Below are positions 1,691 through 41,004 of a DNA stretch of 64,000 nt, piece after piece (the stretch's first letter is position 1; each line of letters opens with the position of its first letter). The translations under genes were made by a program, and so were the position numbers. Under the pieces are notes generated by a model. The model was given only the letters and a program-made list of their open reading frames with translations, was not told the origin of the DNA and made no database searches. The DNA lies in NCBI GenBank assembly GCA_000002445.1, contig CH464491.1, positions 5,024,001 to 5,088,000 on the forward strand, given 5' to 3'. The DNA comes from Trypanosoma brucei. Lineage: Eukaryota.

Positions 1691-1841
1691 ATCCTTAAGA
1701 AATATGCATCAAATAAATAATATTAACCAAAATCAAAAATGATAAATAGCATTTATTTTCAAAACACTATTACCCCATAATTTGCACACATAAAACACTG
1801 TCACACACATATTGCCAAAAATTTACAAATTTCATCAAAAA

Positions 1842-1856
1842 GTGTTAAAATATATA
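1842..1856 (-). promoter_or_regulatory. VSG 3'UTR 16-mer element (for the C-terminal fragment at 1990-2230)
   Basis: GTGTTAAAATATATA on the plus strand is the reverse complement of the conserved VSG 3'UTR 16-mer TGATATATTTTAACAC. Confidence 0.7.
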
Positions 1857-1989
1857 AAATATTAGGAGTTTTATCCAAATATCAAATTAAATAAATTATC
1901 TTATAATCGTTATAGTGCTATAAAATTCATAAAGACAACATCTATGAAAGCCAATTTTTTATTAAAAAGGAAACTGCCATTTCGGCTCT

Positions 1990-2230
1990 TTTCTCTTTCT
2001 TAGTCATATTCACCCTATTTGCCTTTTTTCCAGCCGCAATTCTTTTTATCATCCTTTGTTTTCGTCCTCACAAGCTTGTTGATTAGTGCCACGTTGGGTA
2101 CCCTTTTCTTTTCTTCCCATATTTTCCTTCTCCTTTTCCTGCTTTGTCTGCTTTTTCTGTTTCCTTTTTGCCTTCCTCACTCAATGTGCACTTTTCACCA
2201 TCTTTGCCATCTTTGTTAAAAACACGCCCC
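1990..2230 (-). pseudogene. VSG: VSG C-terminal-domain fragment (no N-terminal domain, premature stop)
   Basis: Minus-strand translation gives ...KDGKDGEKCTLSEEGKKETEKADKAGKGEGKYGKKRKGYPTWH and ...KNCGWKKGK*, which resembles the VSG CTD motif HCGWKGENS of the neighbouring gene. The CTCAATGTGCACTTTT block is shared with copies at 33950 and 58640. Confidence 0.55.
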
Positions 2231-2528
2231 TGGAAGTTTAGCGGCACTAGCTTTCGGATGCCAGCGGCAGATGAGGCAGTCGTTCCTTAACTACCAAATG
2301 TGATAATCTCCTGCTTTAAAATAACCCTATTTTTACATTATTTCCTTTTGAAAGCAAATTGTTTTGTGCAACGAAACTGCCACGCGCCAGCGCTTTTTAA
2401 AAAATTTTAAAGCCGTGCTCAGCGCAAAATTCAGAGCTGAAATTCACATAAACGAAAAAAATTTTCAAAATGTGATAGCGAGGTATAGACTAAGAATACA
2501 AAGACGAAGATTCTTGAAGTTTGAAGAA

Positions 2529-2541
2529 GGTTTAGGGTTTA
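2529..2541 (+). repeat. Telomere-like G-strand hexamer/heptamer remnant (GGTTTAGGGTTTA)
   Basis: Direct read. It lies about 70 bp from a C-strand remnant at 2610-2623 in the opposite orientation. Confidence 0.4.
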
Positions 2542-2609
2542 CGTAAAAAAGAGCCGCTGATTCATTAAAAAAGTGGCGAATTAAAAAAAATTAATTAAAA
2601 AATTAATAA

Positions 2610-2623
2610 CCCTAACCCTAACA
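2610..2623 (-). repeat. Interstitial telomeric repeat remnant (CCCTAA)2 on plus strand, TTAGGG on the gene strand
   Basis: Plus strand reads AACCCTAACCCTAACA. A second degenerate copy, CCTAACCCTAAA, is at 2795-2810. Confidence 0.6.
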
Positions 2624-2908
2624 CTTTTTAGCCTATTTTTCTTTCTTCCTTTTTTATTTCATTTTTAATAGAACTTTGAGAATCAATTACAAAATTCCCT
2701 AAAAGTTTTGATTCTTTTTAAAAATTTAAAAAAAAATAAAAAATAAAGAAGATCAAAAAAATAATCCAAAATTTGTGAAAACTCAATAATAAAAAACCTA
2801 ACCCTAAAAGTTCAAAACATTCAAAAATAAAAAAATGAGAAATTTTTTAGCTATCAGAAATTTTTTTTACAGAATCAGACAACCAAAAAAATTCTCGGTC
2901 GAATTTAG

Positions 2909-2942
2909 GTGTTAAAATATATCAGAAGTTTTCAAGTAGCAA
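2909..2942 (-). promoter_or_regulatory. VSG 3'UTR 16-mer (2909-2924) and 8-mer (2935-2942), with a C10 homopolymer at 2963-2972
   Basis: GTGTTAAAATATATCA and AGTAGCAA on the plus strand are the reverse complements of the conserved TGATATATTTTAACAC and TTGCTACT elements. On the gene strand the order is 8-mer, then 16-mer, as in VSG mRNAs. The G10 run (a C-tract on the gene strand) sits between the stop codon and the 8-mer. Confidence 0.85.
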
Positions 2943-2982
2943 AAATTTCTTTAAAAAATTGAGGGGGGGGGGTGAATTTGTT

Positions 2983-4422
2983 TTAAAAAAGCAAGGCCAC
3001 AAATGCGGCAGAAACCACGCTGAGGGCGAATTGCTTGTCTAGGAGAATAGAGGAATAACGGCATTTATAAGTTCCTTTATCAGATCCATCACTATTTTCT
3101 CCTTTCCAGCCACAGTGTTTTGTTCCACCCTGATTTGCTGCCTCGCACGCCGTCTGGTTTTGAAAGCTGCTGCACACAGGTTTGGAAGTATTATCCCCGC
3201 CTTTCTTTTCTTCTGTTTTTTCTTCTGAGTCTTTTTTCTTAGCTGGTTCGCCTTCTGCTATCTTAGCTTCCTTTTTCATGGAAGCAAGTTGCCTCGCCAA
3301 GGCCTCTGTTAGCTTCCCAATATCTGTTTCAGATTCGAGATGCAGACCTTCTGATGTTTTATCTTTGTTTATTTTAGGCTTAAGGTTGTTGATTTTTTTC
3401 CACAGTCGCTCCTCAAATTTGCTGCCGCCTTCACCATATGCCGCTTTTATGGAAGCATCGAGCAGACTTGGTGGCGTCGTCATCGTGTCTTCTGAGTTTT
3501 CCAGTCCTGGTAAGGATCTGACTAGTTGCCTTTTGAATAAGTCGCTTGTTGCTACGGCGTTGTAGTCGTTTGCTGTAGATGAGCAATGCTTCTGTTTGAA
3601 GTGATCTAGTAGTAGTTTGTTTGCGTCATTAGCATTGGTTATATTAGTTTTCAGGACGTCGCTGGCCACCGCATATTTTAGATCTGCATTGGCTCCATCG
3701 CCTGACCAGGCTGTTGCTTCGTTTGATTGTACCGCGCTGCCGATTTTGATTATCGAATTGAACGTGAGTTTGCCTGTGTCTTGGGTTATCCCTGTGCTTA
3801 CACAGTTAGTGTTGCCGCCGCCGTGCTTACAATTTATTGTTACTTCTGTTATTGGAGTCAGCTCGGGCAGTAACATGTTTTCGGATTCGTTCGTGGGGTC
3901 AAATTTTGTCCTTTCCTCGGTCAGCTGTACCTTTGCGCATTCGTCTGGCATGGCGGTGCCTGCTGTTTTTGTTGTTAGTGACGTCGCAGTGAACTGGCCT
4001 GCCCCCGTTCTCGCCGTTAACTCTGTTTTGCCTCCGGCCTGGCTGAGTTGTTCGATTAGTGTTATCGCTCGGGCCGCAGTTGTTAGTTTTGGCTCATGGT
4101 CGGCCAGTAATTTGCGGCCTGCCTGTGCCGCAGCTCGGCAGGTTTGAAATATTTCGCCTGTCGCAGCTAAAGCTGGTAACGATTTGCTCTTTAGATCATC
4201 GTCGCCGGCTGTGGCGGCAATCGTTAGTTTTAAAATCTGGTCTGTCATAAGCGCCAGATTAGCCTCTGCTCGTTCCTGTTCCTCTGTATAAAAAGCCAGG
4301 GCGTTGTGCAGCCGCATCGCGCACTCGCAGCCGCTGTCGCACTTCACCGCTTTTGACGCGCTTGTTTTGTAGGTTGTAATGCACAGTGCCGCTATCCAGC
4401 TTGCGGCAAGTGCGGCAGCCAT
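2983..4422 (-). CDS. VSG: Variant surface glycoprotein, intact 479-aa ORF (a-type N-terminal domain; C-terminal GPI signal ...SSILLDKQFALSVVSAAFVALLF)
   Basis: A single ORF with an N-terminal hydrophobic signal (MAAALAASWIAALCITT), a Cys-rich C-terminal domain (HCGWKGENSDGSDKGTYKCRYSS) and a hydrophobic GPI-addition tail. The 16-mer and 8-mer 3'UTR elements follow. Confidence 0.9.
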   Translation of the reverse strand: MAAALAASWIAALCITTYKTSASKAVKCDSGCECAMRLHNALAFYTEEQERAEANLALMTDQILKLTIAATAGDDDLKSKSLPALAATGEIFQTCRAAAQAGRKLLADHEPKLTTAARAITLIEQLSQAGGKTELTARTGAGQFTATSLTTKTAGTAMPDECAKVQLTEERTKFDPTNESENMLLPELTPITEVTINCKHGGGNTNCVSTGITQDTGKLTFNSIIKIGSAVQSNEATAWSGDGANADLKYAVASDVLKTNITNANDANKLLLDHFKQKHCSSTANDYNAVATSDLFKRQLVRSLPGLENSEDTMTTPPSLLDASIKAAYGEGGSKFEERLWKKINNLKPKINKDKTSEGLHLESETDIGKLTEALARQLASMKKEAKIAEGEPAKKKDSEEKTEEKKGGDNTSKPVCSSFQNQTACEAANQGGTKHCGWKGENSDGSDKGTYKCRYSSILLDKQFALSVVSAAFVALLF

Positions 4423-5313
4423 CTATATTAAAGCTTCTTGTGGTGTTGAGGTTGATGTTCTTATTGGGTTGGTCACCTGTGCTGCTGGAGGGAACTTTTC
4501 TGTTAGAAGCTTTCTTTTTGGGTGCAGTGAGAAATACGCCTCGTTTTTTAAAGAACAGACATATAAATCCAATTGGCTTGTCAGTACTACTTTTGTGTTT
4601 GGTTACGATTTGCATATATTTTATATGGTATCTATCCCGTTATTTTTTTCTTTCTCATGTTGTCTATTTGCCGGCACTAATCCATTACATTTTGTGTAAA
4701 TAACATAGTAAATTTCTTTGTTTCCACGGACGTGATTCTTGTGCCGCTTCTGTGGTGTCTGCTTGGCGTCTGGTGCAATGTTTGGCAGTTGTCCAAAGCT
4801 TTTTAGTCTCATCTAGGTTTCGATCTGGTCCTATTTTGATTGCGCCTCTCGTTTTGTTTAATTTATCAGTGATATCTGCTGATACCTGCACGTCCTTGCC
4901 GCGTGTCTTGCCTTTTGTATCTTCTATTGTTTTTATGACATCTGCGTCTGTGTTGTTGGTGCTGTAGTCTCCTATTTACCTTTAGTGGCACTGTTTTAAT
5001 TTCTCTTGCATTTGTTCTGCTGTGAAAGCTCTGCTTTTGTTTCTCTGTTTTGTCTGGGATTCAAATTTGAGGAAAGTTTGACAAAACCGCTTGTATGCCA
5101 GAACAACCCGTGAGGAATTCATCTAAGAGTTGTCTAGTTTCTTTTTTCTCCTGTGGTTGAAATCCTAAAGCCAATTACTCGTTAGAATTTACCTTTAAAC
5201 CAGTTGCATCTTGGGAGAAGTTAAAATTTGTCAGCTTCAAGCAACTTCCCTTCCTTAAATGCATCACTACAAATACTATCATAATAAAAATCTAACTTCT
5301 CCCCGGATACAGC

Positions 5314-6190
5314 CTAAGTTTGCAGTTTTCCTAGATTATGATTTATCAATTCCTTACTTTTATATTTTTTATACCAAGTCAAGTTGGTCATAGTTTCTTT
5401 TTCCCTTTCCTGCCGAGAGAACGCGTTTCCTGCTAGATGAAGTAATTCAGCTTCTCCAATGGCGCCACTGACGTGTATGGAAAAGAATCGATCCTCGTAA
5501 TCCAATCCAATCATTCCTCTTGGCAAAAGAAGTCTTTTTCCTACATTAGTCTCTCTGTACACACTCAAAAGAAGTAACGGCTTGTAAATGCTCTGTTCCG
5601 ACCACCATTCATCGGTCATTTTAAGTATTTCATTAAACGCTCTTTCAAACTTTCTGAATGCCCAAAATCTAGCTATTATACCACCTCCATTCAAGTATGC
5701 TTTTTGGTTTGCAGGCCACTTAATTAAGTGCGTTAGGTTCAGCTGCTCTTCCACAAAGTAAGAGGCTTTGCAAAACCATGTGCACCCCGCCATATGGTCT
5801 CTGTATTCTGAGTTCAAAAGTAAATCTAACTGTGGTGCATAACATTCAGCTGGCGACATGAATATAATTGGAGAAACTTGTTTCTCTTTGACAACATCGT
5901 CCTCGCTAAACTTCTCTTCATTTTCTGCATAATTTTGCATAAAATATTCCACCGCATTCTCATATATATCACGATCAGTAACAATAACATCAGACCCATC
6001 AAACAGTGATTACAATATCCTCATCACTTGCATTATTATTTTCTAAAAATTCCATAACCCATATAGGCCTTTTAACATGGCTATACAAACATCCTATTGC
6101 AATTGTAATAATGTCAATATGAGCCTACGCCGTCCTTGAGTTTCTTGCGTTTGAACTACAAACGCAAAGACTTTGGGTTTCTTAGCCTCA
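5314..6190 (-). pseudogene. Conserved array-associated non-VSG pseudogene (best guess ESAG3-like, a GRESAG family; truncated and frameshifted)
   Basis: 212-aa ORF 5314-5952 (MEYFMQNYAENEE...GIIARFWAFRKFERAF...WWSEQSIYKPLL...GAIGEAELLHLAG). Upstream continuation to about 6190 is broken by stops. A paralogous copy is at 29190-29960. It lies between a 70-bp repeat and a VSG, as ESAG3 pseudogenes typically do. The family name comes from memory, not from a search. Confidence 0.4.
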
Positions 6191-7011
6191 TTATTTGTTA
6201 TATGTGTTATATTATTTTATTCATCATTTTAAAGGAACACAGCGCTTATACATACTAAATGTTATATCAACAGGAATAGTAAAACTCTCAAGAGACCGAA
6301 TTCCATGACTTACTATACTTTTACAATTTGAGGTTATTATAGGAAAAATTAGAAAAGTTCAATAAATATGTTCAGTTGTAACATTATTGTATTTATTTAA
6401 GGAATAAGTGTTTACATAAATAATCAATTTCTTTATACTATTACTGTGTGACTTATGAAGGGTGAATTCTCAGAAAATACATCTTTTGCTTAAGCATGCA
6501 TCTACGGATTTGGTTTTAGTATATAGCTGTAGCTGTAGCTTTAGCTTAGACCGCACTCTACATGTGTGCCATAATTTCTTGCATTATTCACATTTTTTCT
6601 CTATGGAGTGTTGTAGAAAATGTTTTATTTAGTTGTACTACTGAGTTCCTAGATGCTAAGTCTTTTATTACATTCCTATGACAGCTACCTAGATGTTCGT
6701 TAAAGCCATGAAACCAGCATCAACGTGGCTTTGTGGAGTAATATAAGTGATTCTTTGAACAACATACCCACTCTATTTTTCTTGAACATCCGTTCCTGTT
6801 TTTCCCGCATCTTCCTTTCAACAATTTCCTCGTGTTCAATTACGCCCATCATTACATTATGCTCGAAGCTGCACCTGTACCATCTCCATCTCCCTCTGTC
6901 TTCTTCACTCAGCTACTGTTCACATTACTTACTTACTTTTGTTGAACCTTTGCACCTTCGCAACTGGTTTACTTGCTTCTACTTTACCTTTCCATTCCAT
7001 CTTCACCACCG

Positions 7012-7228
7012 CTATCATTATAATATTCGTATATACACACACTTACAACACTCTCCTATCATTATTATTATCATTATCATTATCATTAATATTATTATTA
7101 TTGCTCTTATTATAATATTTGTATATACACACTCACAACACTCTCCTATTATTATCATCATCATTATTATTACTGCTCTTATTATAATATACGTATATGC
7201 ACACTCACAACACTCTCTTAACATTGTG

Positions 7229-7260
<32 letters not shown>

Positions 7261-7320
7261 CATTTTTATTATTACTATTTTTATTATTACTGTTGTTATC
7301 ATTACTATTTTTATAAACAT
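7012..7320 (-). repeat. 70-bp repeat array (3-4 tandem units plus long TAA/TTA tract)
   Basis: Three consecutive copies of (C)TTATTATAATAT(T/A)(C/T)GTATATACACACTCACAACACTCTCC, then about 110 bp of ATT/ATC triplets. This is the longest 70-bp block in the window. Confidence 0.9.
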
Positions 7321-7589
7321 AACTTATATTAATAAAATGAACAAAATAAAGCACAGCATAAAATTAGAATGGCTCTCATTTTTCATACTCTGTTACAACA
7401 TTATGTTACATCCGTAGGCAACTTTTACACCAAAATTTTATATTCTTTAGATTTTCAGATACTCAAAAAATTTGCACTGATTTAAACATTTTCATCAAAA
7501 AGTGTTAACATATATCAGATAATAGTAATTCTCTCAAAGTAGAAAGTGTCATAAATTCCACTAATTGGAAAAAATTTATTAATATGCTG

Positions 7590-9157
7590 AAATGTTATCA
7601 AACTCACAAAAGCAGGAACAATCAGAGCCAATTTACCATTGACAAGAAAACTGGAATCTCTATACGCTGGGTCAACTTTTCCCTGTCCTTCAATATAGTC
7701 AATCCATCCACAAACAGCTTTTTTTTGCTGCCTTTGTTCTTGGAGCTTTCGCACATGTTTCGGGGTCCCGATAAAGGGAGTAAACGGAACCTGTTGGGGC
7801 CACTCCTTCCTTAAATTTTCATTTATCATCTGTTCAATTGCACGGGTCTTTGCATTTTTCTGCTGTTGTTATCGTTACACACGCCTTTTCGAATTCGGAA
7901 GTTTTTGGTTCGTCTGTTTCTTATCTGCTCCATCGAGTTGCTTCTCGTCCGCGGCTTTTGAGTCATTATTTGCCTGTTTGTAGCTTTCACTTCTTCCTTT
8001 TGGGCTGCTGTTTCCGCTTGAGCTAGGGCTGTCGCCATCAGGGCTGACAATGTGTTGTTGTCGGAGGTTAGCTGCGCCTCCTCGATCATTATTTGATCCA
8101 GTTCTGTTTCTGCTTTCCGTCCCTCTTGTGTTGCTGTTTTGAGTTTGGCAAGCCATTTTGGTGAAAGCGGTTTGCCGTTGTTTGCACCTGCAAACATACA
8201 AGCTCCTTTATTTTACGAATGGTCCCCGTCGCGCGCATGTCGCCGCTGCCGTCGATGGTTCCGAGTATGCCGACTTTGCTGGCACTCCCCTTGCCCTTGC
8301 TCATATCGTCTTCGAAGCCGCGGATTGCTGATTCTAGTAGGCTAACGGGGGTTTGACCCTGCTCGGCTTCGTTACCGGCTTAGCATTCGGCCGCTATCTT
8401 GTTATAGGATTTTGCGGCGTTTGTACCGACTTTGCTGAACGTTACGTGATCTTTCCCTGCGCCTTCGCACGCTTTGTTGGGCCGTGTCGTGCTGTCTGAT
8501 GCGCATATGCAAAGCATCGACGCTTCCAATTTCTTTGGCCCGGTGATTGCTGCTGTCGGTGTCGAGGGATTGCCGAAAGCCGTTGGTCTTGAGTTGTCCG
8601 AGCCGAATATTTTTGTTGTTGACGATGTCTTGCTGACCGCCGAACAGGGCCTGTTTTAGTGTTGCTTTCATTTGAGCAAAAACATCTTTTCCTTCTTTGG
8701 ATGCTAGTTCTTTTTCTTTTGTTTCTACCTGCCTTCCTGTTTTGTTCAGAGCTAGAGTTACGTACGATTTGCTTGTGAGTGCGGCAATCAGGTGCTTTTT
8801 AGCGTCGCCTTTGTGGACGTCTAAGAAAGCCTTGGCTTTTTCGCATGCGGCCTTTTTGTTTCCACCGCATGGATTTGATTCCTGTATTTGCTCTGCTTCT
8901 GCCGGTCGTTGTGCACTTGCTTCTGCCGTTGTGGTTTTTTCTACTGCGTCTCTGCTGTTTAGGAGTAGGTTTATAGTACTCGCCGCATCCATGATATTTT
9001 TGACGTCAGCCCAATTCGTATTTGGCTTTGGAGTGTACTTCAAGGCCTTTAACACCGCGCAGAAGTGGTGAAGGACATACCTGTGGCTACCGTCCGGTGG
9101 GGCTGCCCCGCTGACATACTGTAAGGTTATAGCCAACGCTAGTGCCGCGCGGTGCAT
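7590..9157 (-). pseudogene. VSG: VSG pseudogene (multiple frameshifts; stop codon after GPI signal lost)
   Basis: N-terminal ORF 8402-9157 (MHRAALALAITLQYVSGAAPP...). Middle fragments are 7826-8201. C-terminal ORF 7515-7829 contains ...KAVCGWIDYIEGQGKVDPAYRDSSFLVNGKLALIVPAFVSLITF and reads through into the 3'UTR. The 16-mer GTGTTAACATATATCA is at 7502-7517. Confidence 0.8.
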
Positions 9158-10719
9158 CTTGCCGATTGTATCCTTGTGTGACAGTCTTGGGATCCCTACT
9201 TTTGCCTAAGGTGCAGTTTCCTTGAAGAATCTAGTTCGCTCATGTTAGGCTTGTCAGTGTTATTTTCTTTTTGTGGCTGTGTCTTCGTTGCTGGTAAGCG
9301 TGTTAGTGTGCCTATCCGTACTGGCGGTTGATCAACGCTGTATTTGGATTGCATGTTGTGGTAAACACCATGCATCTTTTGTCGGAATTATGCTTTAAAA
9401 GTCGCTTCAGTTGACATGTAATTGTTGTTGTGTTATTGTTTAGTTTTAAGCACCGTTTGGCTCGTGTTTTTGGCGGGGGACAATGCGTTTTGGGTGCCTT
9501 TTACTCTCTGGCTAGAGTTGTTCTGTACATAAGGTGAATTCACTGTTTCCACACTGCTTCCAGCCAACTTCTTGTAAATGTTTCTGATTTATAGAGTGTA
9601 TTATCTTCGACTTTGTGCAACTTCTCGAGTTGTTGTGGCCATAATCACAGAAGTATCGTTTGTAAAATTGATTTCTGCCGCCGCTGACTTTTTGCTTTTT
9701 TTCTTTGGTGTATGTTTTTGCTGTCTTCCCTCCACCTGCACTATCCGAAACTGTTAGTACCTCTGATGTTTCTTTCAAATTGTTCTGTTTTTCTTTTTGT
9801 AAGCGCATAGGCTTTTTTCACTCCAAAAACTGAATAAGAGGTGTGAAAAAGTTATTATATAGAGCTTAAACTATATGCTCTTATCTACCACCGGTGTCTA
9901 GCGTTTGCTGCGCTCGCGTTCTAATGATCGGCTGCGGCGCTGTCGCGACGCGCAGTCTTTTGTTCTTGTGAGTAGTCCTTACTGCTTTTACTTTTCCAGT
10001 AAAAAATTGTTGTGGATAGGTTGGATTATCTGTATACCTTTGCTTTGTTGCTGGACATTGTATAGTTGTCGTTTTTTGTGCAAGCTGTTGTTTTCCTGTG
10101 TCTTGCTTTATTAAAAGAGGGATTTTACAGTTATTAAGGGGTAGGTCCTGCCTATTCCACTTTTTTTTACCTTGTATAAAATAATTTATTTATCCTAACT
10201 GCTGTAAAACTAAACCAAAACACTCATACGCGTTGTTTGAGCAACTGCCGCTTAAATGTAGCGCCACATATCAAAATCTAATGTCAGATTTAAAAAAGAT
10301 TCACTGTCATCTCCGCCATCCAATCTGTACATTTACATATGAAATGTGGTGCACAATTCCCCCTGAACCATTTTCTTCTGTGGAACCATCTATTGGCTGA
10401 AAGTCTGGCGTTCTATTCCTCATTTTTCCTCTTTTCTGCATGTGTTAATGTTTGCTTCCATCACTGTACCTGAGGTAGAGGCTGCATTTGACCTCTGCAA
10501 TGTGCTTAGTTTCTGCATCATTTACCACTCTATTGCCTCCTTGTGTATAATAGTGCAATTTTCATGTTTGTGTCAGAAACTGCATCTATTCTTCTTTCCT
10601 TTCGTTTTGTTTCATTGCGTTACATTTAATAATATTCTCCTCACTTACTTACTCTCATTTCAACATTTTCATAATATCAATGCACCACTTTCAGCAGTAC
10701 ATACAGCCTTTAGCATAAC

Positions 10720-11068: not shown

Positions 11069-12562
11069 TCATAAATTTATAAAATCGAGCAAAAATGCAA
11101 GCAATAGAGGCACCTTGTGAATGACAAAAGAATTGCTTCCTGTGGTGTTTGTGGTTCCGGTTTTGCTATCTTTCTCTCCTCCCTCTACTTCCTTTTTGAC
11201 AAAATACGTATCCTTTACGCACTTTTTATTTTCTCCCTCGCCGGTGAGTTTGCAGCCATCTTTGCAATCGTCTCCTGTTTTTTTACTGCATTCTTTGTTT
11301 TCCTCTTGTATTCCCCCATTGGTAGAGCAGTCTTTTGCTGGTTCTGACGCGACTGTTCTATCCGCCTTAGCTTTTAGTTCGGGGATGGCGATTAATAGCG
11401 CGGTTGTTATTTCTGGTGGGTCTGTTAGTGTTTCGATCTTAACTTCTTTGGGTTTTCCGCCATCTATTTTTTTCACCTTTAGCTTATTCACTTGGTTGAC
11501 TCGTGCGGTCGAGGCGGCGTTATCGTCTTTGACTGCCTGTCCTATCAAGCTTCTGGCTGCTTGATCGGCCATAGTGTTAGTGACTTTGCCGAGCTTTATG
11601 AGTAAATCTTTGACTTCGGCTTTTATGGTGGTTGTTGTAAGGGCTTCTGATATTGCCTTTTCTGTTGTTTCTGGGCATGTGCTCTCGGGAAGTTTCATTA
11701 CTTTGCCGATGGCGGTGAAGAGCTTTTTGGCTGCCGTGGCGGAGTCGGGTGCTTGGTAGTCTGTGCCTAGTGCATTTGCCACTGCTATTGTTGCTGTCGC
11801 TCCTGAACCTGTGTGGGGTGATACTGTGATTAGGTCTGCGCCTACCGTGGCTGGGGTAGCGCTGCCGCTGTACTGCCATAGCGCCGTGTTGTCCGCGTTG
11901 GATCCCAGCATAAAGGCGCAGACGTTGTTTCCTGTGGCGTCTTGCAGTTGCGTCGGCCCAGAGTATTTCGCTAATCCTTTGTTAGTTATTTCGCTGCTGT
12001 CTAGGTTTAGCTTCGGTGCGTATTCGTCCGTTATCGTTGTCGGGCATCCGAATTCTGCTGGCGATGTTAGTTTCGTGGTTCTTGTATTGGCCTGTGTTAT
12101 GCACTTTCGCGCCGTGTCGCTCTTTGTGGTAGCTTGAAGTATCGCCACTAGCTCCGTTAGTCGGCCTGCCACGTGGGCACCGTTTGCTGCCGCCGTCACA
12201 CCCGCTGCTACGTTTCCTGCTGCTTTGGTTGTTGCATCTACTCGGCAGTTCTCTGCTGCTCGAGCCGCTGCTGTGAACAGAATTGTATCGTTTACAGTGG
12301 GTACCACTAGAGCAGCCAGAAGCAATTTGTTTCGGGCTTCGGCCGCCGCCTGCTCTTGCCTGTGTAGCTTCTGCAGGCGGCCGATTGCGACTGCCGCTGT
12401 ATCCTGTATTGCCATGGCCGTGCCGCATAGCTGTGTTATTTTGGCTTCGTTGAACCCGTTGGTTGATGGCTTTGCCAATCTTAAGATGGTCGTGAAGCAC
12501 AGTGTTAGAAGGGTCACTGTGTGCGCGGACAGACGCTGTTGCTCTCCCGAAAATGGAAGCAT
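11069..12562 (-). CDS. VSG: Variant surface glycoprotein, intact 497-aa ORF (C-terminal ...TTGSNSFVIHKVPLLLAFLL...)
   Basis: Single long ORF. It has a signal-like N-terminus (TVTLLTLCFTTILRLA) and a VSG CTD with a GSNSFVI...LLLAFLL GPI signal. The 3'UTR at 11004-11065 holds conserved motifs (CATAATTTTCATAAATTT, a degenerate 16-mer). Confidence 0.85.
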   Translation of the reverse strand: MLPFSGEQQRLSAHTVTLLTLCFTTILRLAKPSTNGFNEAKITQLCGTAMAIQDTAAVAIGRLQKLHRQEQAAAEARNKLLLAALVVPTVNDTILFTAAARAAENCRVDATTKAAGNVAAGVTAAANGAHVAGRLTELVAILQATTKSDTARKCITQANTRTTKLTSPAEFGCPTTITDEYAPKLNLDSSEITNKGLAKYSGPTQLQDATGNNVCAFMLGSNADNTALWQYSGSATPATVGADLITVSPHTGSGATATIAVANALGTDYQAPDSATAAKKLFTAIGKVMKLPESTCPETTEKAISEALTTTTIKAEVKDLLIKLGKVTNTMADQAARSLIGQAVKDDNAASTARVNQVNKLKVKKIDGGKPKEVKIETLTDPPEITTALLIAIPELKAKADRTVASEPAKDCSTNGGIQEENKECSKKTGDDCKDGCKLTGEGENKKCVKDTYFVKKEVEGGEKDSKTGTTNTTGSNSFVIHKVPLLLAFLLDFINL

Positions 12563-14314: not shown

Positions 14315-15820
14315 TTATCGTAGAAAAAATGCAAGCACAAGAGGGGCCTTTTTAATGATAACAGAATTGCTTCCTGTGGTGTTTGTGTTTGTTTTTCCAT
14401 CATTTTCCGCTTTAACTCCCTCTACTTCCTTTTTGACAAAATCCGGATCCACTACGCACTTTTTATTGTCGACAACGCCGGTCAATTTACAACCATCTTT
14501 GCATTCAGCTCCTGTTCCTTTTTTTTCGCAAGTTTCATCTGTTTGCCCCGTTTTGTTTTTTTGCTTTTCTTGTCCTGCTTGAACTGCAGTAAGCCGGAGT
14601 GCTATGCCCTTGAAATAGCTGCTTACCAGGGCTAGGTCAGTGCCTGTTGCTATGCTGTCTAGAGTTCCTTTCGAATCTTGGGTTTCTTTTTTGTATTTCG
14701 TCTGTTTGTCGTAGAGGCCAGTGGTGTATCGCGATCCGAAGGTTGTAGCATCGCCGTAAGTACTTTTGATGAGTTGCTTGATTTGGTCGGCTTCTGTGCC
14801 TTCTGGCTGTGTACCTGCAGGGATTTCAGTTGTTAGAAGTTGCGCTGCAATGTACAAAAAGTCGCTGTCACCGAATAACGTTTCTGTCGTTGTCGACTCT
14901 AGCGCGATCTTTGGAGGTGGGACTGCCTCTCTTGCTTTGCACAGCAGGGCTGCTAGCTTGTCTGCCGTGGGCAGCTTGCTTGGTGGTTTCTCTTCTTCGG
15001 CGTCGCAGTTCTGCTTTGGCCGGTCAGTTTTTCTTGTCGGTAATAGCTTGCCTCCGTAGTGTGGTGCCGTTGCTTTTGCTACCATCGTGATTGCCTCCAG
15101 TGTGCCTTGTGTGGTAGTTGTCTGGCATTTGTTGTTGCTGTCTGAATTGAGGGCCGTTGACAGTTCCAGTTCCAGATCGTAGTTTCCCATTTCTATGTCT
15201 ATTTCCGCCTCGGTAGCTGCTTTTACCTTGGTCGCCGCCATCGCCGAGATGGTTTTTCTTTCCAGTGGCGAGTTGCTAAGTGTTGTTGGGTCGCACTGTG
15301 CGTCGCCGTGTTTTGCCCACGTTGTTTTAGCTTTGCATTTTGTGGTCGTTGCGTCTCTTGTGCTTTTTGAGACTTTGAACGACGTATAGGCTTGTGTGCG
15401 GCCTTGGAGATAACTTATGCGCTGGAGAATCCCCTCTCTGACGCCGCTTAATGTTTGTTTGTAGTTCACGCGTGCTTGCTTGGTTTTGTCTATTTTTAGC
15501 CTTCCGTGTAAAACCAGTGCCGCGTATGCATTTTGTTCTTTCAGCTGCGTCGCTTCTGCTGCTTTAAGTTGCCATATCTGCGTCAGTTTTTCTGCTTGGG
15601 AGACATCGCTATCGGTTGTCGAAAGCAGGGACTTGAAATCCTCTGCTACTTTGTGCAGATATTTGGCCTCGTGGCAGAGAGAGGCTATGGCATTTTCGGC
15701 TTCGTTTTCTGCCATCGCCTTTTGCATCGTCAGCATCGACAGAGTTAGCACCAGTACCTGCTCTATGTTGTTGGGCTGAATCATCTTACTTTGTGCTCTT
15801 TCTTCCCTTGCTTGCCGCAT
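14315..15820 (-). CDS. VSG: Variant surface glycoprotein, intact 501-aa ORF (likely true start at the internal Met MIQPNNIEQVLVLTLSMLTMQKAMA)
   Basis: Long ORF with a VSG CTD (...CEKKGTGAECKDGCKLTGVVDNKKCVVDPDFVKKEVEGVKAENDGKTNTNTTGSNSVIIKKAPLVLAFFLR). The 16-mer-like GTGTTAAAATATTTA is at 14215-14229. Confidence 0.85.
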   Translation of the reverse strand: MRQAREERAQSKMIQPNNIEQVLVLTLSMLTMQKAMAENEAENAIASLCHEAKYLHKVAEDFKSLLSTTDSDVSQAEKLTQIWQLKAAEATQLKEQNAYAALVLHGRLKIDKTKQARVNYKQTLSGVREGILQRISYLQGRTQAYTSFKVSKSTRDATTTKCKAKTTWAKHGDAQCDPTTLSNSPLERKTISAMAATKVKAATEAEIDIEMGNYDLELELSTALNSDSNNKCQTTTTQGTLEAITMVAKATAPHYGGKLLPTRKTDRPKQNCDAEEEKPPSKLPTADKLAALLCKAREAVPPPKIALESTTTETLFGDSDFLYIAAQLLTTEIPAGTQPEGTEADQIKQLIKSTYGDATTFGSRYTTGLYDKQTKYKKETQDSKGTLDSIATGTDLALVSSYFKGIALRLTAVQAGQEKQKNKTGQTDETCEKKGTGAECKDGCKLTGVVDNKKCVVDPDFVKKEVEGVKAENDGKTNTNTTGSNSVIIKKAPLVLAFFLR

Positions 15821-16911
15821 CGCTTATAATTGTTAGTTACTTTTGGGGCTGAGTGGTGAGTATTTTTTTCAATTATTCCAACACCATCGACAATTAGCTT
15901 GTTAACAAAGATGTGAAACTGAGGGTATAAAATATTTTTTCAGCTTTTGACCTCTTCCTGGCAGCATGTCAAATTGTCTATCTCAATAAGAACCAATCAT
16001 TTTGGATGATGTTTGGCTTGTGCTGTCATTTGGAAAGGAAAGCTATATTGACCGTCCATTGGTTGGGAGAGTTTTAGTGCTTGGAGTTTTCATTAAACTT
16101 AATGTAATATGCGCTCAATAAAAATCCAACCCACATTTACCCGTCGTCCATCAAATTTCAATGTACTGTCAAGCGGACGCACGGCTATATTTCTATACCG
16201 CATAGCGAAAAACTCTTTTTAATCAAAAACACTTACAATACTGATCTCTTTGTGCTTTTAATGCGGTTCAAATCCTTGTTTACGGATTAATCTGTTATAA
16301 AGACCTAACGCTGTCACTTTTTTATTAAGGATAAGCTTGGTCATTTCAAGTGTTTTCTAGTCTTACTGGTGTTCTTTTTCATCTAGTCGGTGTAAATCAC
16401 GGAATTTTCTGTACTCATTTGCTTTTAAGTTTCTTTATATTTCCCATAAGTTCAAAGAAAGTGTGCATTTATATTTGAATTATACGTTACGTGATAGCTG
16501 TAAGCGTCTGTCCGGCATAAAAATACATAGTTAGAAGAATGCCATTATTGATTCTTCCTATTTCATAGAGATTCTCCATTGGTTCATTGAAGCGGTCTCT
16601 TCACAGTTGTTACCCCTTCGCTTTCAGTCAGCGCAGCCTCTTGCACATATCGCTGCGTATAACTTACTAGATACATCTGACTCAATTTCTAGCATCCTCA
16701 TCTTCATAAACTCAGCTTGTATGTTCTTTTTTATAATACCATATTGATTATTTCTGCGCTTAGCAGTGCGTATAATCCTTTTTTTCTCCATTTTCTTCTA
16801 CAACAATTTTTCTTTTCTGTCCTTCTCATTTTTTCACGCTTACTTACCCACATTGCTTCCTTTCAGTTGTTTATATTTCTTCTTTTTTGTTTTCTAGTCG
16901 TTCGGAAGCAC

Positions 16912-17050
16912 CACCACTATTATTATATTATCGTACTCACAATTAAAACACTCTCATATTATTATTATTATCATCATTATTATTATTACTGCTCTTATTA
17001 TAATATTCGTATATAAACACTTACAACACTCTCCTATTATTTTTATTACA
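16912..17050 (-). repeat. 70-bp repeat (about 2 units)
   Basis: ...CACTCTCATATTATTATTATTATCATCATTATTATTATTACTGCTCTTATTATAATATTCGTATATAAACACTTACAACACTCTCCTATTAT. Confidence 0.85.
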
Positions 17051-20585: not shown

Positions 20586-20658
20586 ATCTTATTATTATAT
20601 TAGTATATACACACTCACAACACTCTCCTATTATTATCATCATCATTATTATTATTAA
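20586..20658 (-). repeat. 70-bp repeat
   Basis: CTTATTATTATATTAGTATATACACACTCACAACACTCTCCTATTATTATCATCATCATTATTATTATT. Confidence 0.9.
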
Positions 20659-28899: not shown

Positions 28900-29189
28900 A
28901 GTGGAACTAATATTTCTTGCGATGATGGATATTTTGGGAGTGAATGAAAAACAATTGTGTCACTGCCGCGGTTGTTTGGTGCCGCTTTGCATTTCCAAAG
29001 TTTCAGCTATTCGGTTAGTGATATTTGGCAGCTGTTAGTTTGTTGGCGTCGGTACGCTCTTCTTGACAACTTTCACAACTTCTTTGCTCTAAACAATTAA
29101 ACCTCTTTAAACGACACACCACAAATTTCCTGATATTGAAAATCCCATTTTCCTCCGCCCATCGCATAATTTTGAAGTTTCAACAAATC

Positions 29190-29960
29190 TCTTGTGTTAA
29201 ATTTACTTCGTTTGAACTCTCTATACCAAGTAAAAATTTTCAAAATCAGTCTTTCTTTTTTCCTCCCAGTCATCTGTTTGTCCTACAAAATGAATAAATG
29301 GAGCCTCTCCAATCACCCCACTATTGGGAATAAAAGAATCTCTCTTCATAATCCTATCCAATTATTCCCCTCCTCAAATAAAATATCTGTCTAAAAGCTT
29401 CTTCCTGAATTGCACTTCATATTAACAACGGTTTGTAAATACTCTGCTCTGACCACCACTCCCCACTTCCCTTTAGTAACTCTCCAAATGCATATTCAAA
29501 CCTTCTAAATGCCCAAACTCTGGCTATCAAACCATAGCCACTAAGATAAGGGTTCCCACTAGGAGGTGATTTCAGTAACGGCGGTAACTTCTTATCCTCC
29601 TCTTTTCTGTATACAACATTAAAAAAACAATAGAATCTCTTCACATGTTCTTTGTAAATATCCTCTTCACTTTCTGCTGTATGTTGTATAAAATATTCCA
29701 CAGCACTCTCATACTTATTTCCATCACTAACTATAACATCCGATCCGTCTTAATGAATTACAATACCCTCATCAGTTACATTCCGTTTCTCTGAAATATT
29801 CCATAACCCATCTAGGTCTTTTAACGTGACTATATAAACTTCCCGTCGCAATTGTAATAATTTCAATATTGATTAGTTTGGCACTCAATATGAGTCTACA
29901 CTATCCTTGAGTTGCATGAGTTTGAACTGCGACCACAAACACTCTAGGTTTTTTGTGCAC
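29190..29960 (-). pseudogene. Second copy of the conserved array-associated non-VSG pseudogene (ESAG3-like?), frameshifted
   Basis: ORF 29417-29701 (MEYFIQHTAESEE...GLIARVWAFRRFEYAF...WWSEQSIYKPLLI) is paralogous to 5314-5952. The downstream frame is shifted but still encodes ...SGVIGEAPFIHFVGQ, matching ...SGAIGEAELLHLAGN in copy 1. Upstream nucleotide similarity continues to about 29960. Confidence 0.4.
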
Positions 29961-30512
29961 ATTTTATGTTACATTTGTTTTTGTGTCTTCTTGAAGTGAT
30001 ACTGAGCCTGAACACACTAAATGTTAGAGGAACTGTAAAGTTTTCAATATACAAAACTTCATGTCCTAATTTGTTCTATAATTTTGAGAAGGTTATCAGA
30101 AAAACTTGAAAAATTTAGGAAAATGGGATATTCCATCCTAAGATATATTTCGATTTTCAACAAGTTTTGGATTTCAATTTTAAAGCATACCGATATGCAT
30201 ATATATCTAAAACGTAAACATTTATTAACTTAATTAGCATCTACCACTGTACCAAACCTAGACACTCCATTTAGCCTCTTCACTAGACTTCGTGGGTATC
30301 TTATTGTCCCCCTCATCATCTTTATTTGTATGTTGGTGACCATCGTTACGTTTGTATATTGAACTGTTTATATTCTATCTCCATTTAGCCTTTGTTTATC
30401 ACAATATTCCTCTTTTCATTTACCTTTTATTTCTCACTTCTATTCGTTGTAACACTACAACTGTTCTACGTGGTTCTGTATTGTTGTTAATTTAGTCTTC
30501 AAAAATCATATT

Positions 30513-30595
30513 TTTATAATATTAGTATACACATACGCACAACACTCTCCTATTATTATCATCATTATTATTATTACTATTATTACTGCTATTAT
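30513..30595 (-). repeat. 70-bp repeat
   Basis: TATAATATTAGTATACACATACGCACAACACTCTCCTATTATTATCATCATTATTATTATTACTATTATTACTGCTATTAT. Confidence 0.85.
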
Positions 30596-33460: not shown

Positions 33461-33779
33461 CTACGACTCTAACTTGATATCCATAAAAAATGGGAAATGA
33501 ACTAAATTAATATATTACTTATTTTAATATACAATTACCCTCCTACATTCCACAGACAGTCCTCTATAATACAAATGTTTTACAAGTTCTTATTTTTTAA
33601 AAATTTTAATGAATTACACGTTTTGCAAGTTAGAAGTTAAAAAGTGTTAATATATATAACAAATTTTATAAAACTTCAAAAAATTATCTCAGAACAAAAA
33701 AATCATAAATTTAATAAAATTGAGCAAATATCCTTCGAATGATCGAATGCTACCAAACTTACAAAAGCAACAGGCATCA

Positions 33780-33960
33780 GAGCTAATTTCTTATTGAAAA
33801 TAAAACTGGAATCCTTGCAGTCTTTTTCATACTATTAACAGTTGCTGCCCTTTTCACAAGCTTGTCGATTAGTGTCATGTCTGGAACACTTATCTTTCTT
33901 CTCATCTTCCCCTCCTTCTTTCGCTTCTTCTTTTTATACTTTTTTTATGCCATCCTCACT
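33780..33960 (-). pseudogene. VSG: VSG C-terminal-domain fragment (module copy 2)
   Basis: It shares the CTCACTCAATGTGCACTTTTT block and upstream flank with the fragments at 1990-2230 and 58440-58700. GTGTTAATATATATA (16-mer-like) is at 33644-33658. Confidence 0.5.
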
Positions 33961-34247
33961 CAATGTGCACTTTTTATCGTCGTTTCCTTTGGGATTGAAA
34001 ATGCGCCCATGACAGTTGAGCGGCTTTAGACGTCTGCTGTCAGGGGCAGATCTGGAAGTCATTCCTTAACTGCTGATCGTAATAATCTCCTAGTTCCGAA
34101 TATCTCTCTTTTTAGATTATTTTTCATTTAAAAGCTATTCGTTTCGCGCAGCTACACTGGCATGCGTCAGCGTAAAAAAAGCCGAATGCACCGCAAAGAA
34201 AAACCTGGCAAATTATAAAAAAGCCAAAAAAAGTAAATTAAAACCCG

Positions 34248-34288
34248 AAACCTAACCCCCTAACCCTAACCCTAACCCCAACCCTTTT
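34248..34288 (-). repeat. Interstitial telomeric repeat remnant, about 6 degenerate CCCTAA units on plus strand
   Basis: CCCGAAACCTAACCCCCTAACCCTAACCCTAACCCCAACCC. A weaker CCTAACACTAAAACCTA is at 34389-34406. Confidence 0.7.
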
Positions 34289-34570
34289 TTTCTCTTTTGT
34301 CGGTCCTATTTCTGTTCGGGCAGATTGTTCAAAAACTTAATTAAATTCGTTACCTCGGCCCAAAACAAAAATTAATTAAAAATAAAAAACCTAACACTAA
34401 AACCTACAAAAATCAACAGGAAAAAGGAGAAAAAATTTAGCAATCATCAAAAAAATTTGGTAGGCTCAGGTAGCCAATATATATATATATGTATATAACG
34501 ATTTCTCGGAGATTTTAAAGGGGTTAAAATATATCAAATAGCAAAGTTCGTTTAAAAATAGGGGAATTTT

Positions 34571-39458: not shown

Positions 39459-41004
39459 CGCTTTCTTTGTTGACTATCTAAGTTTTATTGCTCCTTAAAT
39501 ACAAATAATTTGTCAGTTTCTGCTTGGGCCGCTGTTTGAATGTGCCGTTCCGCAGTGGCGGTGAGGGAACTTTTCCTAGTAAATGGCGAAAGTCTTTTAC
39601 ACTGGCTGATTTTTGTATGGAAGGGTAAAGGCAGAAAGCTACTTTGTCATGTATGCGCTAGATGTTCTGTCCGACTGCATAAAATGCAGCTTGCACTTTA
39701 TTTTGGGGTCGTAAAGTTGTGGCATAACCTTCAACCGCTTCCTTACTATATCTAAATCTAAAATGGTTATTAGTTAGGTGTCAGTCCGGCTTCACTTTGC
39801 TCCAGTGGCGTGTGTTATTGGTGCCGTCTGTTTGTCTTTTTGCCTGTTCCTGCTTAGTGAAGGTTGTTTCAATCGCTTTAGCAGCAGGCCGGTATTTTTT
39901 TGTTGTATTTTCGTGTAATACAAGGTGATATATCAGAACTTTAGTTGCTCTGACCGATTTTGCTGTAAATGTGTCTGTTTTTTTGGTGGTGTATTATTGT
40001 CTTTTTTGTACTTGGTTTCGATGAACAGATCGGAATAATAGCTATTGCAATTGTCGATGTGTTGTTTAGCACTCATTGAACTTCTTTATAATTTGAGTAA
40101 AGCAATCGAAGCGCCAGCGCCTTTTTGCCACAAGTTGTCCGCACTTGACATCGCTTGACGATGCTTAATTCGTTGCAGATTGTAAAGTCGTTTATGACAC
40201 GTGACTTGTTTTTGTCTTGTCTTATTGGTAGAGCCCTCTGTATAGGAGTAATCTTGTGCATTCCGTTGTAACGGGAGCCGATTTTTGGTCATTGCATTGG
40301 TGCCGCCGCCTTATGTTTCTCAGCGCCCTTGAACATCCTATCTGGTGCTGACTGTCGCAAGCAATTAAAAAAAGTACAAGCAAAAAAAGCTCGTGGGCCG
40401 CTTACTGGCTACTTCCCTTTTAAAGGCCCCCAACAATATATAATTCATTCCGCAAGACGTTTTTGATTGAATTTCTGATTTAATATTCGGATAGTGTGCC
40501 ATAATAGAAACGGCAATCAACACGACTGCCGTGACTTCATCTATTTTTCAAGTGATACACAAAAATTTATTTACTTCTTTTCTATTTTCCTCTACATCGC
40601 GGTGTGTTATAACGTATTATGTTGTTTGATCATGTACTATTTATTATGCTTCACCCGTGCTGCTTATTTCATGACAAAAACGTACCGATTGTATTTTTCC
40701 TGTGAAATGGACTCTTTTTATTCCTCATTTCTGGTTGCAGCATGTCCTTTTGTATAACAATACAAACTATCTTATTTATGCATGAAACTTGCGCATATTT
40801 CATCAGTCATCCTTTTTCATGACTTTGTACCCTTCAAAAATATTCTCTATGCTCTCTTTCACTCACACTCACTCTCTTGAACACATCTCACTTACTTACT
40901 CTAATTTCACCGTTGACATTGTTGTATAGTTTCTATTTAGGCCTTGAATTTAGTCATCACAGCTCTTTTGTAAAATTTTTGCATACATAGTGCCGAGATA
41001 ATCC

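What the first reader, a model, noticed from the sequence alone, without database searches (positions are those of the whole stretch)
7012..7320. Expanded 70-bp repeat block (3-4 units plus roughly 110-bp triplet tract) upstream of the best-preserved VSG
Most cassettes here carry a single unit, as is typical for array VSGs. The block at 7012-7320 has three well-conserved tandem units plus a long (ATT/ATC)n tail. Between it and the intact VSG (2983-4422) sits an ESAG3-like pseudogene. That gives the arrangement 70-bp repeats, ESAG-like pseudogene, VSG, 3'UTR, telomere repeats. This resembles the terminal part of an expression-site or metacyclic-type telomeric locus more than a generic array cassette. 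It is consistent with the telomere-derived origin proposed for the module at 1842-2982.
Basis: inference. Interest (0 to 1): 0.5.

Follow-up and report, generated by a model that had tools for sequence, protein, structure and literature searches.

The report
Three-unit 70-bp repeat before VSG
This is an ordinary recombination "handle" (three copies of the trypanosome 70-bp repeat) in front of a silent surface-antigen gene inside a gene array; it is slightly longer than its neighbours and is not good evidence for a former expression site.

Summary
Window 7008-7314 (minus strand) carries three well-conserved Trypanosoma brucei 70-bp repeat units plus an ~85-bp degenerate (TAA)n tail. It is the only three-unit block among about 16 repeat sites in this 64-kb VSG array. 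A full-length but disabled ESAG3 homologue (5224-6306) lies between the block and an intact-looking VSG (2983-4422). Only 2-3 TTAGGG hexamers follow the VSG.

The "expression-site terminus" reading is weakly supported, because the features assort independently:
- A second cassette (27.2-30.6 kb) has 70-bp, ESAG3 pseudogene, VSG with one unit and no telomere tract.
- Two other cassettes carry the same telomere-like 3' module with single units and no ESAG3.
- A homologous 11-kb segment in T. b. equiperdum (90-92% identity) keeps the ESAG3 pseudogene, the VSG and both TTAGGG relics but has only one unit.
- ESAG3 pseudogenes are known to be scattered through subtelomeres.
- The array continues on both sides of the cassette.

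Most likely this is a normal array cassette whose 5' homology arm has a labile unit count. Three units (~300 bp) would plausibly make it a better gene-conversion donor than one-unit neighbours; that is inference. BLASTN against real expression-site termini could not be run. Interest is low.

The parts
7230..7314 (-). Degenerate (TAA/TGA)n triplet tract at the distal (5') edge of the repeat block. It includes a pure (TAA)11 at about 7230-7262.
   Evidence: TRF 7229-7314, period 3, 28.7 copies, 78% match; sequence read. The distal ~65 nt are shared with the T. equiperdum homologue; the pure (TAA)n run is longer here.
7172..7219 (-). 70-bp repeat unit A (distal): AAGAGAGTGTTGTGAGTGTGCATATACGTATATTATAATAAGAGCAGT
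   Evidence: Core match with 1-2 mismatches; nhmmer E 1.8e-15; 90% identical to unit B.
7147..7171 (-). Triplet spacer (TAA/TGA)n between units A and B
7100..7146 (-). 70-bp repeat unit B (middle), with a perfect core
   Evidence: Core with 0 mismatches; nhmmer E 2.3e-16. Together with its spacer it is 97% identical over 68 nt to the single unit at 20587-20654.
7057..7099 (-). Triplet spacer (TAA/TGA)n between units B and C
   Evidence: TRF 7057-7102, period 12/6.
7008..7056 (-). 70-bp repeat unit C (proximal), joining unique sequence (…ATAATGATAGCGGTGGTGAAG)
   Evidence: E 4.2e-15. Its 3' junction matches the single unit of the T. equiperdum homologue.
5224..6306 (-). ESAG3-family pseudogene. 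It is full length relative to the 368-aa ESAG3, with several in-frame stops and a frameshifted stretch around 6120-5990.
   Evidence: tblastn aa 1-368, 51% identity, E 2e-114. The longest ORF (5314-5952) is 57% identical to the expression-site ESAG3 cluster and 70% to a T. b. gambiense array fragment.
4423..5223 (-). Unique spacer between the ESAG3 pseudogene and the VSG start codon (equivalent of a co-transposed region)
   Evidence: No match elsewhere in the window; conserved in the T. equiperdum segment.
2983..4422 (-). Intact-looking VSG, 479 aa: signal peptide, 4-Cys C-terminal domain, GPI signal …SSILLDKQFALSVVSAAFVALLF
   Evidence: ORF; Pfam PF10659, E 1.5e-13; 80% full-length identity to VSG 1125.395 and 78% to Lister 427 VSG-1121.
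2909..2924 (-). Conserved VSG 3'UTR 16-mer TGATATATTTTAACAC, the usual 3' homology for cassette conversion
   Evidence: Exact match; sequence.
2796..2807 (-). Telomere-like relic TTAGGGTTAGGT
   Evidence: conserved in T. equiperdum.
2607..2622 (-). Telomere-like relic (TTAGGG) x2.7. An inverted AAACCCTAAACC lies about 70 nt further on, at 2529-2540.
   Evidence: conserved in T. equiperdum as GGTAGGGTTAGGGTTA.
1842..2300 (-). VSG C-terminal-domain fragment with its own 3'UTR 16-mer (1842-1857). It is part of a 3' module that recurs three times in the window.
   Evidence: Similarity to the T. equiperdum segment breaks inside it, at about 2134.
7502..7517 (-). 3'UTR 16-mer (1 mismatch) of the upstream B-type VSG pseudogene. 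It marks the end of the preceding cassette about 180 nt before the repeat block.
   Evidence: the 8402-9157 ORF hits Pfam VSG_B.

Best explanation
The block is the 5' recombination arm (70-bp repeats) of a normal silent VSG cassette inside a T. brucei-group subtelomeric VSG array. The cassette belongs to a recurrent subtype in which an ESAG3 pseudogene sits between the repeats and the VSG.

Mechanism (established knowledge plus inference). After a break in the active expression site, resected 70-bp repeat DNA invades the cassette's 70-bp units. Synthesis then copies the ESAG3 pseudogene and the VSG. The event resolves in the VSG C-terminal or 3'UTR homology, which includes the 16-mer.

The number of units at such sites is evolutionarily labile, through unequal exchange, slippage or conversion among 70-bp repeats. 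Here it is three, against one at the homologous site in T. b. equiperdum. Three units plus triplet tracts give about 300 bp of homology instead of about 60-100 bp. That should raise this intact VSG's chance of being used as a donor relative to one-unit neighbours.

The short TTAGGG tracts downstream are old interstitial relics belonging to a separately recurring 3' module. They are not evidence that this cassette was recently telomeric.
For: Shown:
- The window is a one-strand VSG array: Pfam A-type, B-type and C-terminal hits across it, with a 3-4 kb cassette periodicity.
- There are three bona fide units, 13 core matches in the window against 0.02 expected. They are in the same orientation as the VSG and 2.6 kb upstream of it. 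Other cassettes have spacings of 1.1-1.6 kb, and the excess equals the 1.08-kb ESAG3 pseudogene.
- The same 70-bp, ESAG3 pseudogene, VSG order occurs at 30.6-27.2 kb in the window and in T. b. gambiense L001, where two units at 8483-8641 precede an ESAG3 pseudogene at 9501-10552.
- T. b. equiperdum L002 is collinear with window 13000-2134 at 90-92% identity. It has the ESAG3 pseudogene, the VSG and both TTAGGG relics, but a single unit.
- The three units are no more alike (82-90%) than they are to units at other cassettes (up to 90%; unit B plus its spacer is 97% identical to the 20.6-kb unit).
- The telomere-like 3' module recurs three times at 67-72% identity.

From the literature:
- 70-bp repeats mark the 5' conversion boundary and promote access to archival VSGs. 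A synthetic dimer works where a monomer does not (PMC4858185; PMC6893398).
- T. brucei recombination is length dependent, with a minimal efficient segment of about 100 bp above about 150 bp (PMC1904282).
- ESAG3 pseudogenes are spread through subtelomeres (PMC6152948).
Against: - The direction of the unit-number change (expansion here or loss in T. equiperdum) is unknown. At 90-92% identity the T. equiperdum segment may be a paralogue rather than the strict orthologue.
- No functional data exist for this locus.
- In Cas9 break experiments only telomere-adjacent VSGs were activated by break-induced replication, and array genes were used mainly by segmental conversion (PMC12137147). A three-unit arm on an internal array gene may therefore make little practical difference.
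- The dimer-versus-monomer experiment concerned the recipient expression site, not the donor.
- No comparison with real expression-site sequences could be made.
Confidence: 0.85

Rival explanations
1. One reading: the segment 2560-7320 is a relic of the terminal part of a bloodstream or metacyclic expression site (70-bp tract, ESAG pseudogene, VSG, telomere). It became internal when further cassettes were added distal to a former chromosome end.
For: - The order of parts matches the atypical BES7 and BES15 layout (PMC2567434).
- The TTAGGG relics lie 175 and 360 nt after the VSG stop, close to or within the published 200-1590 nt VSG-to-telomere distance.
- The ~0.3-kb repeat block falls at the low end of the published 0.2-7.1 kb expression-site range.
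- Interstitial TTAGGG tracts just after a VSG 3'UTR are hard to explain without some past telomeric episode.
Against: - The three hallmark features occur separately in other cassettes of the same window.
- The homologous T. equiperdum segment has the relics and the ESAG3 pseudogene but one unit, so the larger block is not part of the same inherited package.
- The ESAG3 pseudogene is only 51-57% identical to expression-site ESAG3s, which themselves cluster at 90% or more. It is closer (70% aa, 78% nt) to an array copy in T. b. gambiense.
- The gene upstream of the block is a VSG pseudogene, not ESAG1.
- In the T. equiperdum and T. b. gambiense records the homologous genes lie 55-76 kb and 48-68 kb from the nearer contig end and point away from it.
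Confidence: 0.1
2. Origin variant: the two extra units were acquired by exchange or conversion with a longer 70-bp tract elsewhere (an expression site, a minichromosome or another cassette), not by local slippage. On this view the block records past recombination at this cassette's 5' boundary.
For: - Units A, B and C are 82-90% alike, no closer to each other than to units at other cassettes.
- Unit B plus its spacer is 97% identical to the unit at 20587-20654.
- Units A and B end in the 'internal' junction AAGAGCAGT/AAT typical of tandem tracts, whereas unit C carries the unique-sequence junction shared with T. equiperdum.
Against: The units are short and strongly conserved family-wide, so identity values have little resolving power. 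No donor tract is available for comparison. Old local duplications followed by drift would look the same.
Confidence: 0.25
3. The unit-number difference is an assembly artefact: either an over-expanded repeat in the window's assembly or a collapsed repeat in the T. equiperdum assembly.
For: AT-rich tandem repeats are error prone in assemblies. The sequencing technology of both assemblies is unknown to me.
Against: The three units differ from each other at several positions and have different spacer lengths (25 and 43 nt), so they are easily resolved by ordinary reads. The block is only about 300 bp.
Confidence: 0.03

Closest known systems
T. brucei 70-bp repeats upstream of silent array VSGs (short tracts), as described by Hovel-Miner et al. 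2016 (PMC4858185) and in reviews (PMC6893398)
   Same: Conserved GT-rich core plus (TAA/TGA)n tract; head-to-tail units; same orientation as the VSG; located upstream of it in a subtelomeric array; short tract.
   Different: Three strong units where neighbouring sites have one, or one plus a weak second. The block is 2.6 kb rather than 1.1-1.6 kb from the VSG start, because an ESAG3 pseudogene intervenes.
Terminal segment of Lister 427 bloodstream expression sites BES7 and BES15 (ESAG3 pseudogene 3' of the 70-bp repeats; Hertz-Fowler et al. 2008, PMC2567434)
   Same: The order 70-bp repeats, ESAG3 pseudogene, VSG.
   Different: There is no telomere, only 2-3 hexamers followed by further cassettes. 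No ESAG1 or other ESAGs lie upstream. The repeat tract is at the bottom of the expression-site size range. Sequence similarity could not be tested. Such expression sites could equally have acquired their pseudogene by copying an array cassette of this subtype.
ESAG3 / Fam53 subtelomeric pseudogene copies (PMC6152948)
   Same: Full-length homology to the 368-aa ESAG3, disabled by stops and a frameshift, located in a VSG array.
   Different: Divergent: 51-57% aa identity to expression-site ESAG3s. A second, different copy in the window is 62-65% identical to them.
Metacyclic expression sites (promoter 1-2 kb from a telomeric VSG; PMC8034637)
   Same: Short 70-bp tract and a single VSG. That metacyclic sites carry only short or no 70-bp tracts is from my own recollection, not from a source read here.
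   Different: Not telomeric. No promoter could be tested. An ESAG3 pseudogene fills the interval where a promoter would be expected.

Membership tests
T. brucei 70-bp repeat | Conserved GT-rich core sequence (GGAGAGTGTTGTGAGTGTGTATATAC…AATATTATAATAAGAGCAG) | tested here: met
   Three cores with 0-3 mismatches; 13 in the window against 0.02 expected; nhmmer E about 1e-15 for each.
T. brucei 70-bp repeat | Adjoining (TAA/TGA)n triplet tract, with units head-to-tail at a period of about 70-77 bp | tested here: met
   TRF period 72. Spacings are 72 and 90 bp (core-end measure; 92 by start-to-start); the longer one is due to a 43-nt triplet spacer.
T. brucei 70-bp repeat | Lies upstream of a VSG in the same orientation | tested here: met
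   Block at 7314-7008, VSG at 4422-2983, both on the minus strand.
T. brucei 70-bp repeat | Serves as the 5' boundary of duplicative VSG conversion | not testable with these tools
   Needs switching experiments; literature only.
Bloodstream expression-site terminus | 70-bp tract of 0.2-7.1 kb (PMC2567434) | tested here: inconclusive
   About 0.3 kb, at the very bottom of the range.
Bloodstream expression-site terminus | VSG followed within 0.2-1.6 kb by the telomere repeat array at the chromosome end | tested here: not met
   Only TTAGGG x2 and x2.7. A VSG C-terminal fragment, another 70-bp site (1538-1680) and more sequence follow.
Bloodstream expression-site terminus | ESAG1/ESAG11/ESAG2 immediately upstream of the 70-bp tract | tested here: not met
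   Upstream is a B-type VSG pseudogene with its own 3'UTR 16-mer at 7502-7517.
Bloodstream expression-site terminus | Extended nucleotide similarity to sequenced expression-site termini | not testable with these tools
   No trypanosome expression-site DNA is in any searchable collection. The expression-site ESAG3 proteins have no contigs on record.
Metacyclic expression site | Pol I promoter 1-2 kb upstream of a telomeric VSG | not tested
   No promoter consensus could be obtained. The telomeric position is not met.
ESAG3 (Fam53) | Homology over the whole 368-aa protein | tested here: met
   aa 1-368, 51% identity, E 2e-114. Cluster names confirm ESAG3.
ESAG3 (Fam53) | Intact reading frame | tested here: not met
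   Several in-frame stops and a frameshifted stretch, hence a pseudogene.
VSG | Full-length ORF with signal peptide, N-terminal domain, C-terminal domain and GPI signal | tested here: met
   479 aa; PF10659 E 1.5e-13; 80% identity over 469 aa to a VSGnome entry. The N-terminal domain is not recognised by the Pfam A or B models.

The most novel reading that the evidence does not exclude
The number of 70-bp units at array cassettes could be a heritable, strain-variable dial that sets how early an intact array VSG is activated. Cassettes of this subtype (multi-unit arm, co-transposed ESAG3 pseudogene, intact VSG) could also be the donors that created the odd BES7/BES15 architecture with an ESAG3 pseudogene downstream of the 70-bp repeats.
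Probability: 0.12. Interest if true: 0.4.

Novelty: already known. Interest (0 to 1): 0.1.

Why it matters
It matters little beyond annotation. It documents one intact array VSG with a longer-than-usual 5' homology arm, and it shows that unit number differs between homologous segments in two T. brucei-group genomes. If unit number does affect donor choice, loci like this are natural test cases for what sets the order of VSG activation. The idea is not new, and nothing here shows an effect.

Tried and rejected
- Exact-sequence look-ups of three intact window VSGs (2983-4422, 11069-12562, 38034-39458) found no contig on record. The source assembly and its chromosomal position could not be identified. 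The only hint is 100% identity of VSG aa 13-230 to EATRO1125 VSG 1125.4312.
The DNA collections hold phages, plasmids, E. coli, prokaryotic genomes and metagenomes, and the expression-site ESAG3 proteins carry no contigs.
- Marcello & Barry 2007, the reference census of 70-bp repeats per array VSG, is not held. The census here rests on the window plus two loci only.
- No metacyclic promoter consensus could be obtained to scan 4423-7000.
- The ORFs across the block (6725-7417 plus strand, 230 aa; 7018-7320 minus strand, 100 aa) were considered as genes and rejected. They are Ile-rich translations of the triplet repeats.
- Recent local tandem duplication was considered as the origin of the three units. 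It is not favoured, because the units are no more alike than they are to units elsewhere.

Full report
**Context.** The window is a one-strand (minus) subtelomeric VSG array of the Trypanosoma brucei group. GC-rich blocks of about 1.5 kb recur every 3-4 kb. They encode A-type, B-type and C-terminal VSG domains. Each is followed by the conserved 3'UTR 16-mer TGATATATTTTAACAC (11 matches, all on the minus strand) and preceded by a 70-bp repeat site. The closest proteins are T. brucei VSGs and ESAG3.

**The observation.** Read on the minus strand, 7314-7008 has this structure:
- a degenerate triplet tract of about 85 nt, with a pure (TAA)11 core
- a 10-nt linker
- unit A (7219-7172)
- a 25-nt (TAA/TGA)n spacer
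- unit B (7146-7100)
- a 43-nt spacer
- unit C (7056-7008), which joins unique sequence

TRF gives a 72-bp period with 2.7 copies, and an (ATT)n tract at 7229-7314. The 18-nt core pattern has 13 matches in the window against 0.02 expected. A profile built from the window's units finds three strong hits only here. The sites at 1538-1680 and 16909-17045 have one strong plus one weak unit, and all other sites have one unit or a fragment. Adding two related loci (about 42 kb more) yields only one further two-unit site. The block is therefore real and is the largest of about 25 sites examined. There are three units, not four, and the tail is about 85 bp, not 110 bp.

**What lies between the block and the VSG.** tblastn with a 368-aa expression-site ESAG3 (P0001; its 90% cluster holds the Lister 427 expression-site ESAG3s) aligns over aa 1-368 to 6306-5224. 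Identity is 51% and E is 2e-114. The alignment contains several stops and a frameshifted stretch. The longest ORF is 57% identical to expression-site ESAG3. It is 70% identical to a T. b. gambiense fragment annotated 'hypothetical protein, unlikely'. This is a divergent, dead ESAG3-family copy.

The VSG at 4422-2983 is a 479-aa ORF with a signal peptide, a four-cysteine C-terminal domain and a GPI signal. It is 80% identical over 469 aa to EATRO1125 VSG 1125.395. It is not the only intact-looking gene: ORFs of 456-501 aa are at 11069, 14315, 34716, 38034 and 55190. Four of them hit Pfam VSG N-terminal domain models; 14315-15820 hit none.

**Downstream of the VSG.** After the 3'UTR 16-mer (2924-2909) come TTAGGGTTAGGT (2807-2796) and GTTAGGGTTAGGGTTA (2622-2607). 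An inverted AAACCCTAAACC follows at 2540-2529. Next is a conserved stretch running into a VSG C-terminal fragment with its own 16-mer (1857-1842), and then the next 70-bp site at 1680-1538. These are two- to three-hexamer relics, not a telomere, and the array continues.

**Do the features form one inherited 'expression-site terminus'?** The evidence says they assort independently.
1. A second ESAG3 pseudogene (30062-29076) sits directly after a single 70-bp unit (30561-30508) and before a B-type VSG pseudogene (about 28960-27745). No TTAGGG tract follows it.
2. The module VSG 3' end / TTAGGG-like tract / conserved ~450 bp / C-terminal fragment recurs at 34600-33630 and 59370-58270, at 67-72% identity. 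There it lies behind VSGs whose 70-bp sites are single or partial and that have no ESAG3.
3. T. b. equiperdum chromosome CM010675.1 (L002) is collinear with window 13000-2134 at 90-92% identity. It keeps the ESAG3 pseudogene, the VSG and both TTAGGG relics. Its repeat site has one unit and a short triplet run. The window has about 190 nt more. Collinearity ends inside the C-terminal fragment at about 2134, a typical VSG recombination zone.
4. T. b. gambiense L001 has two 70-bp units, an ESAG3 pseudogene and then VSG pseudogene fragments.

The 70-bp, ESAG3 pseudogene, VSG order is therefore a recurrent array-cassette subtype. The telomere-like 3' module is a separate, old, recurrent element. 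The unit count varies on its own.

**Literature.** ESAG3 is located both in expression sites and throughout subtelomeric loci, mostly as pseudogenes (PMC6152948). [quoted passage not shown] BES7 and BES15 are exceptions, with an ESAG3 pseudogene there. 70-bp tracts span 0.2-7.1 kb and the VSG-to-telomere distance is 200-1590 nt (PMC2567434). Metacyclic sites have a promoter 1-2 kb from a telomeric VSG (PMC8034637). The layout here resembles two atypical expression sites. It fails the defining telomeric and upstream-ESAG features: the upstream neighbour is a B-type VSG pseudogene. Expression sites with a downstream ESAG3 pseudogene could equally have arisen by copying an array cassette of this subtype; that is inference.

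[quoted passage not shown] In the active site a synthetic dimer partly restores function where a monomer does not, and orientation matters (PMC4858185; PMC6893398). T. brucei recombination efficiency depends on substrate length, with a minimal efficient segment of about 100 bp above about 150 bp and an inefficient short-substrate route below that (PMC1904282). A one-unit arm (about 60-100 bp) lies near or below that threshold, and this arm (about 300 bp) lies above it. I infer that it should be a somewhat better donor arm, and that conversion from it would co-transpose the ESAG3 pseudogene.

Two caveats apply. The dimer experiment concerned the recipient site. In Cas9-break experiments only telomere-adjacent VSGs were activated by break-induced replication, while array genes contributed by segmental conversion (PMC12137147).

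**Origin of the extra units.** Units A, B and C are 82-90% identical to each other. They are no closer to each other than to units at other cassettes. Unit B with its spacer is 97% identical to the unit at 20587-20654. Unit C carries the unique-sequence junction shared with T. equiperdum. This does not look like a very recent local duplication. Unequal exchange or conversion among 70-bp repeats is plausible, but the units are too short and too conserved to decide. Because the T. equiperdum segment is 8-10% divergent it may be a paralogue, so the direction of change is open.

**Verdict.** The decisive comparison with expression-site DNA could not be run. The finding is of a known kind and of low interest.

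Noticed in passing
window 1830-3068, 33630-34600, 58270-59432 (minus strand): A roughly 1-kb 3' module recurs three times at 67-72% identity. It consists of a VSG 3' end with the 16-mer, short TTAGGG-like tracts (x2-5), a conserved ~450-bp stretch (…CGCTGGCGCGTGGCAGTTTCG…), and then a VSG C-terminal-domain fragment with its own 3'UTR. In copies 1 and 3 an inverted CCCTAA-like tract lies 70-100 nt after the TTAGGG tract (2529-2540; 59002-59013), a head-to-head arrangement. It may be a footprint of how arrays grew from former chromosome ends.
   Followed up: partly
window 29076-30062 (minus strand): A second ESAG3 pseudogene, 62-65% aa identical to expression-site ESAG3, with an internal deletion of about 34 aa and several stops. 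It lies directly between a single 70-bp unit (30508-30561) and a B-type VSG pseudogene. It is only about 68% nt identical to the copy at 5224-6306.
   Followed up: partly
window 2983-4422 (minus strand): VSG aa 13-230 are 100% identical to EATRO1125 'VSG 1125.4312' (499 aa), which then diverges completely. Either a mosaic paralogue exists or that short-read VSGnome entry is chimeric. It suggests the window comes from an EATRO1125-like strain.
   Followed up: partly
window about 2134 / L002 about 12126: Collinearity with the T. b. equiperdum segment (90-92% over 11 kb) stops abruptly inside the VSG C-terminal fragment. The T. equiperdum copy continues with a different C-terminal end, another 16-mer and another degenerate TTAGGG-like tract.
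   Followed up: partly
window 41005-41056: A perfect (TAT)17 tract with only a degenerate 70-bp core beside it (about 40962-41004) lies 1.6 kb upstream of the intact B-type VSG at 38034-39458. This repeat site has kept the triplet part but largely lost the core.
   Followed up: no
L001 10001-10564 (T. b. gambiense FN554968.1): The gene annotated 'hypothetical protein, unlikely' (CBH11491.1) is the C-terminal two-thirds of an ESAG3 pseudogene (tblastn aa 1-354 over 9501-10552). It sits after two 70-bp units, in a region flanked by ISG65 and ESAG1 homologues.
   Followed up: partly
window 6725-7417 (+) and 7018-7320 (-): Long ORFs (230 and 100 aa) run through the repeat block. They are isoleucine-rich translations of the triplet repeats and should not be annotated as genes.
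   Followed up: yes
window 14315-15820 (minus strand): A 501-aa intact ORF in a VSG cassette position gives no Pfam VSG hit at E<=0.01. The N-terminal domain of the 2983-4422 VSG is also missed by both Pfam N-terminal models. These are probably divergent VSG N-terminal domains outside the models' reach.
   Followed up: no
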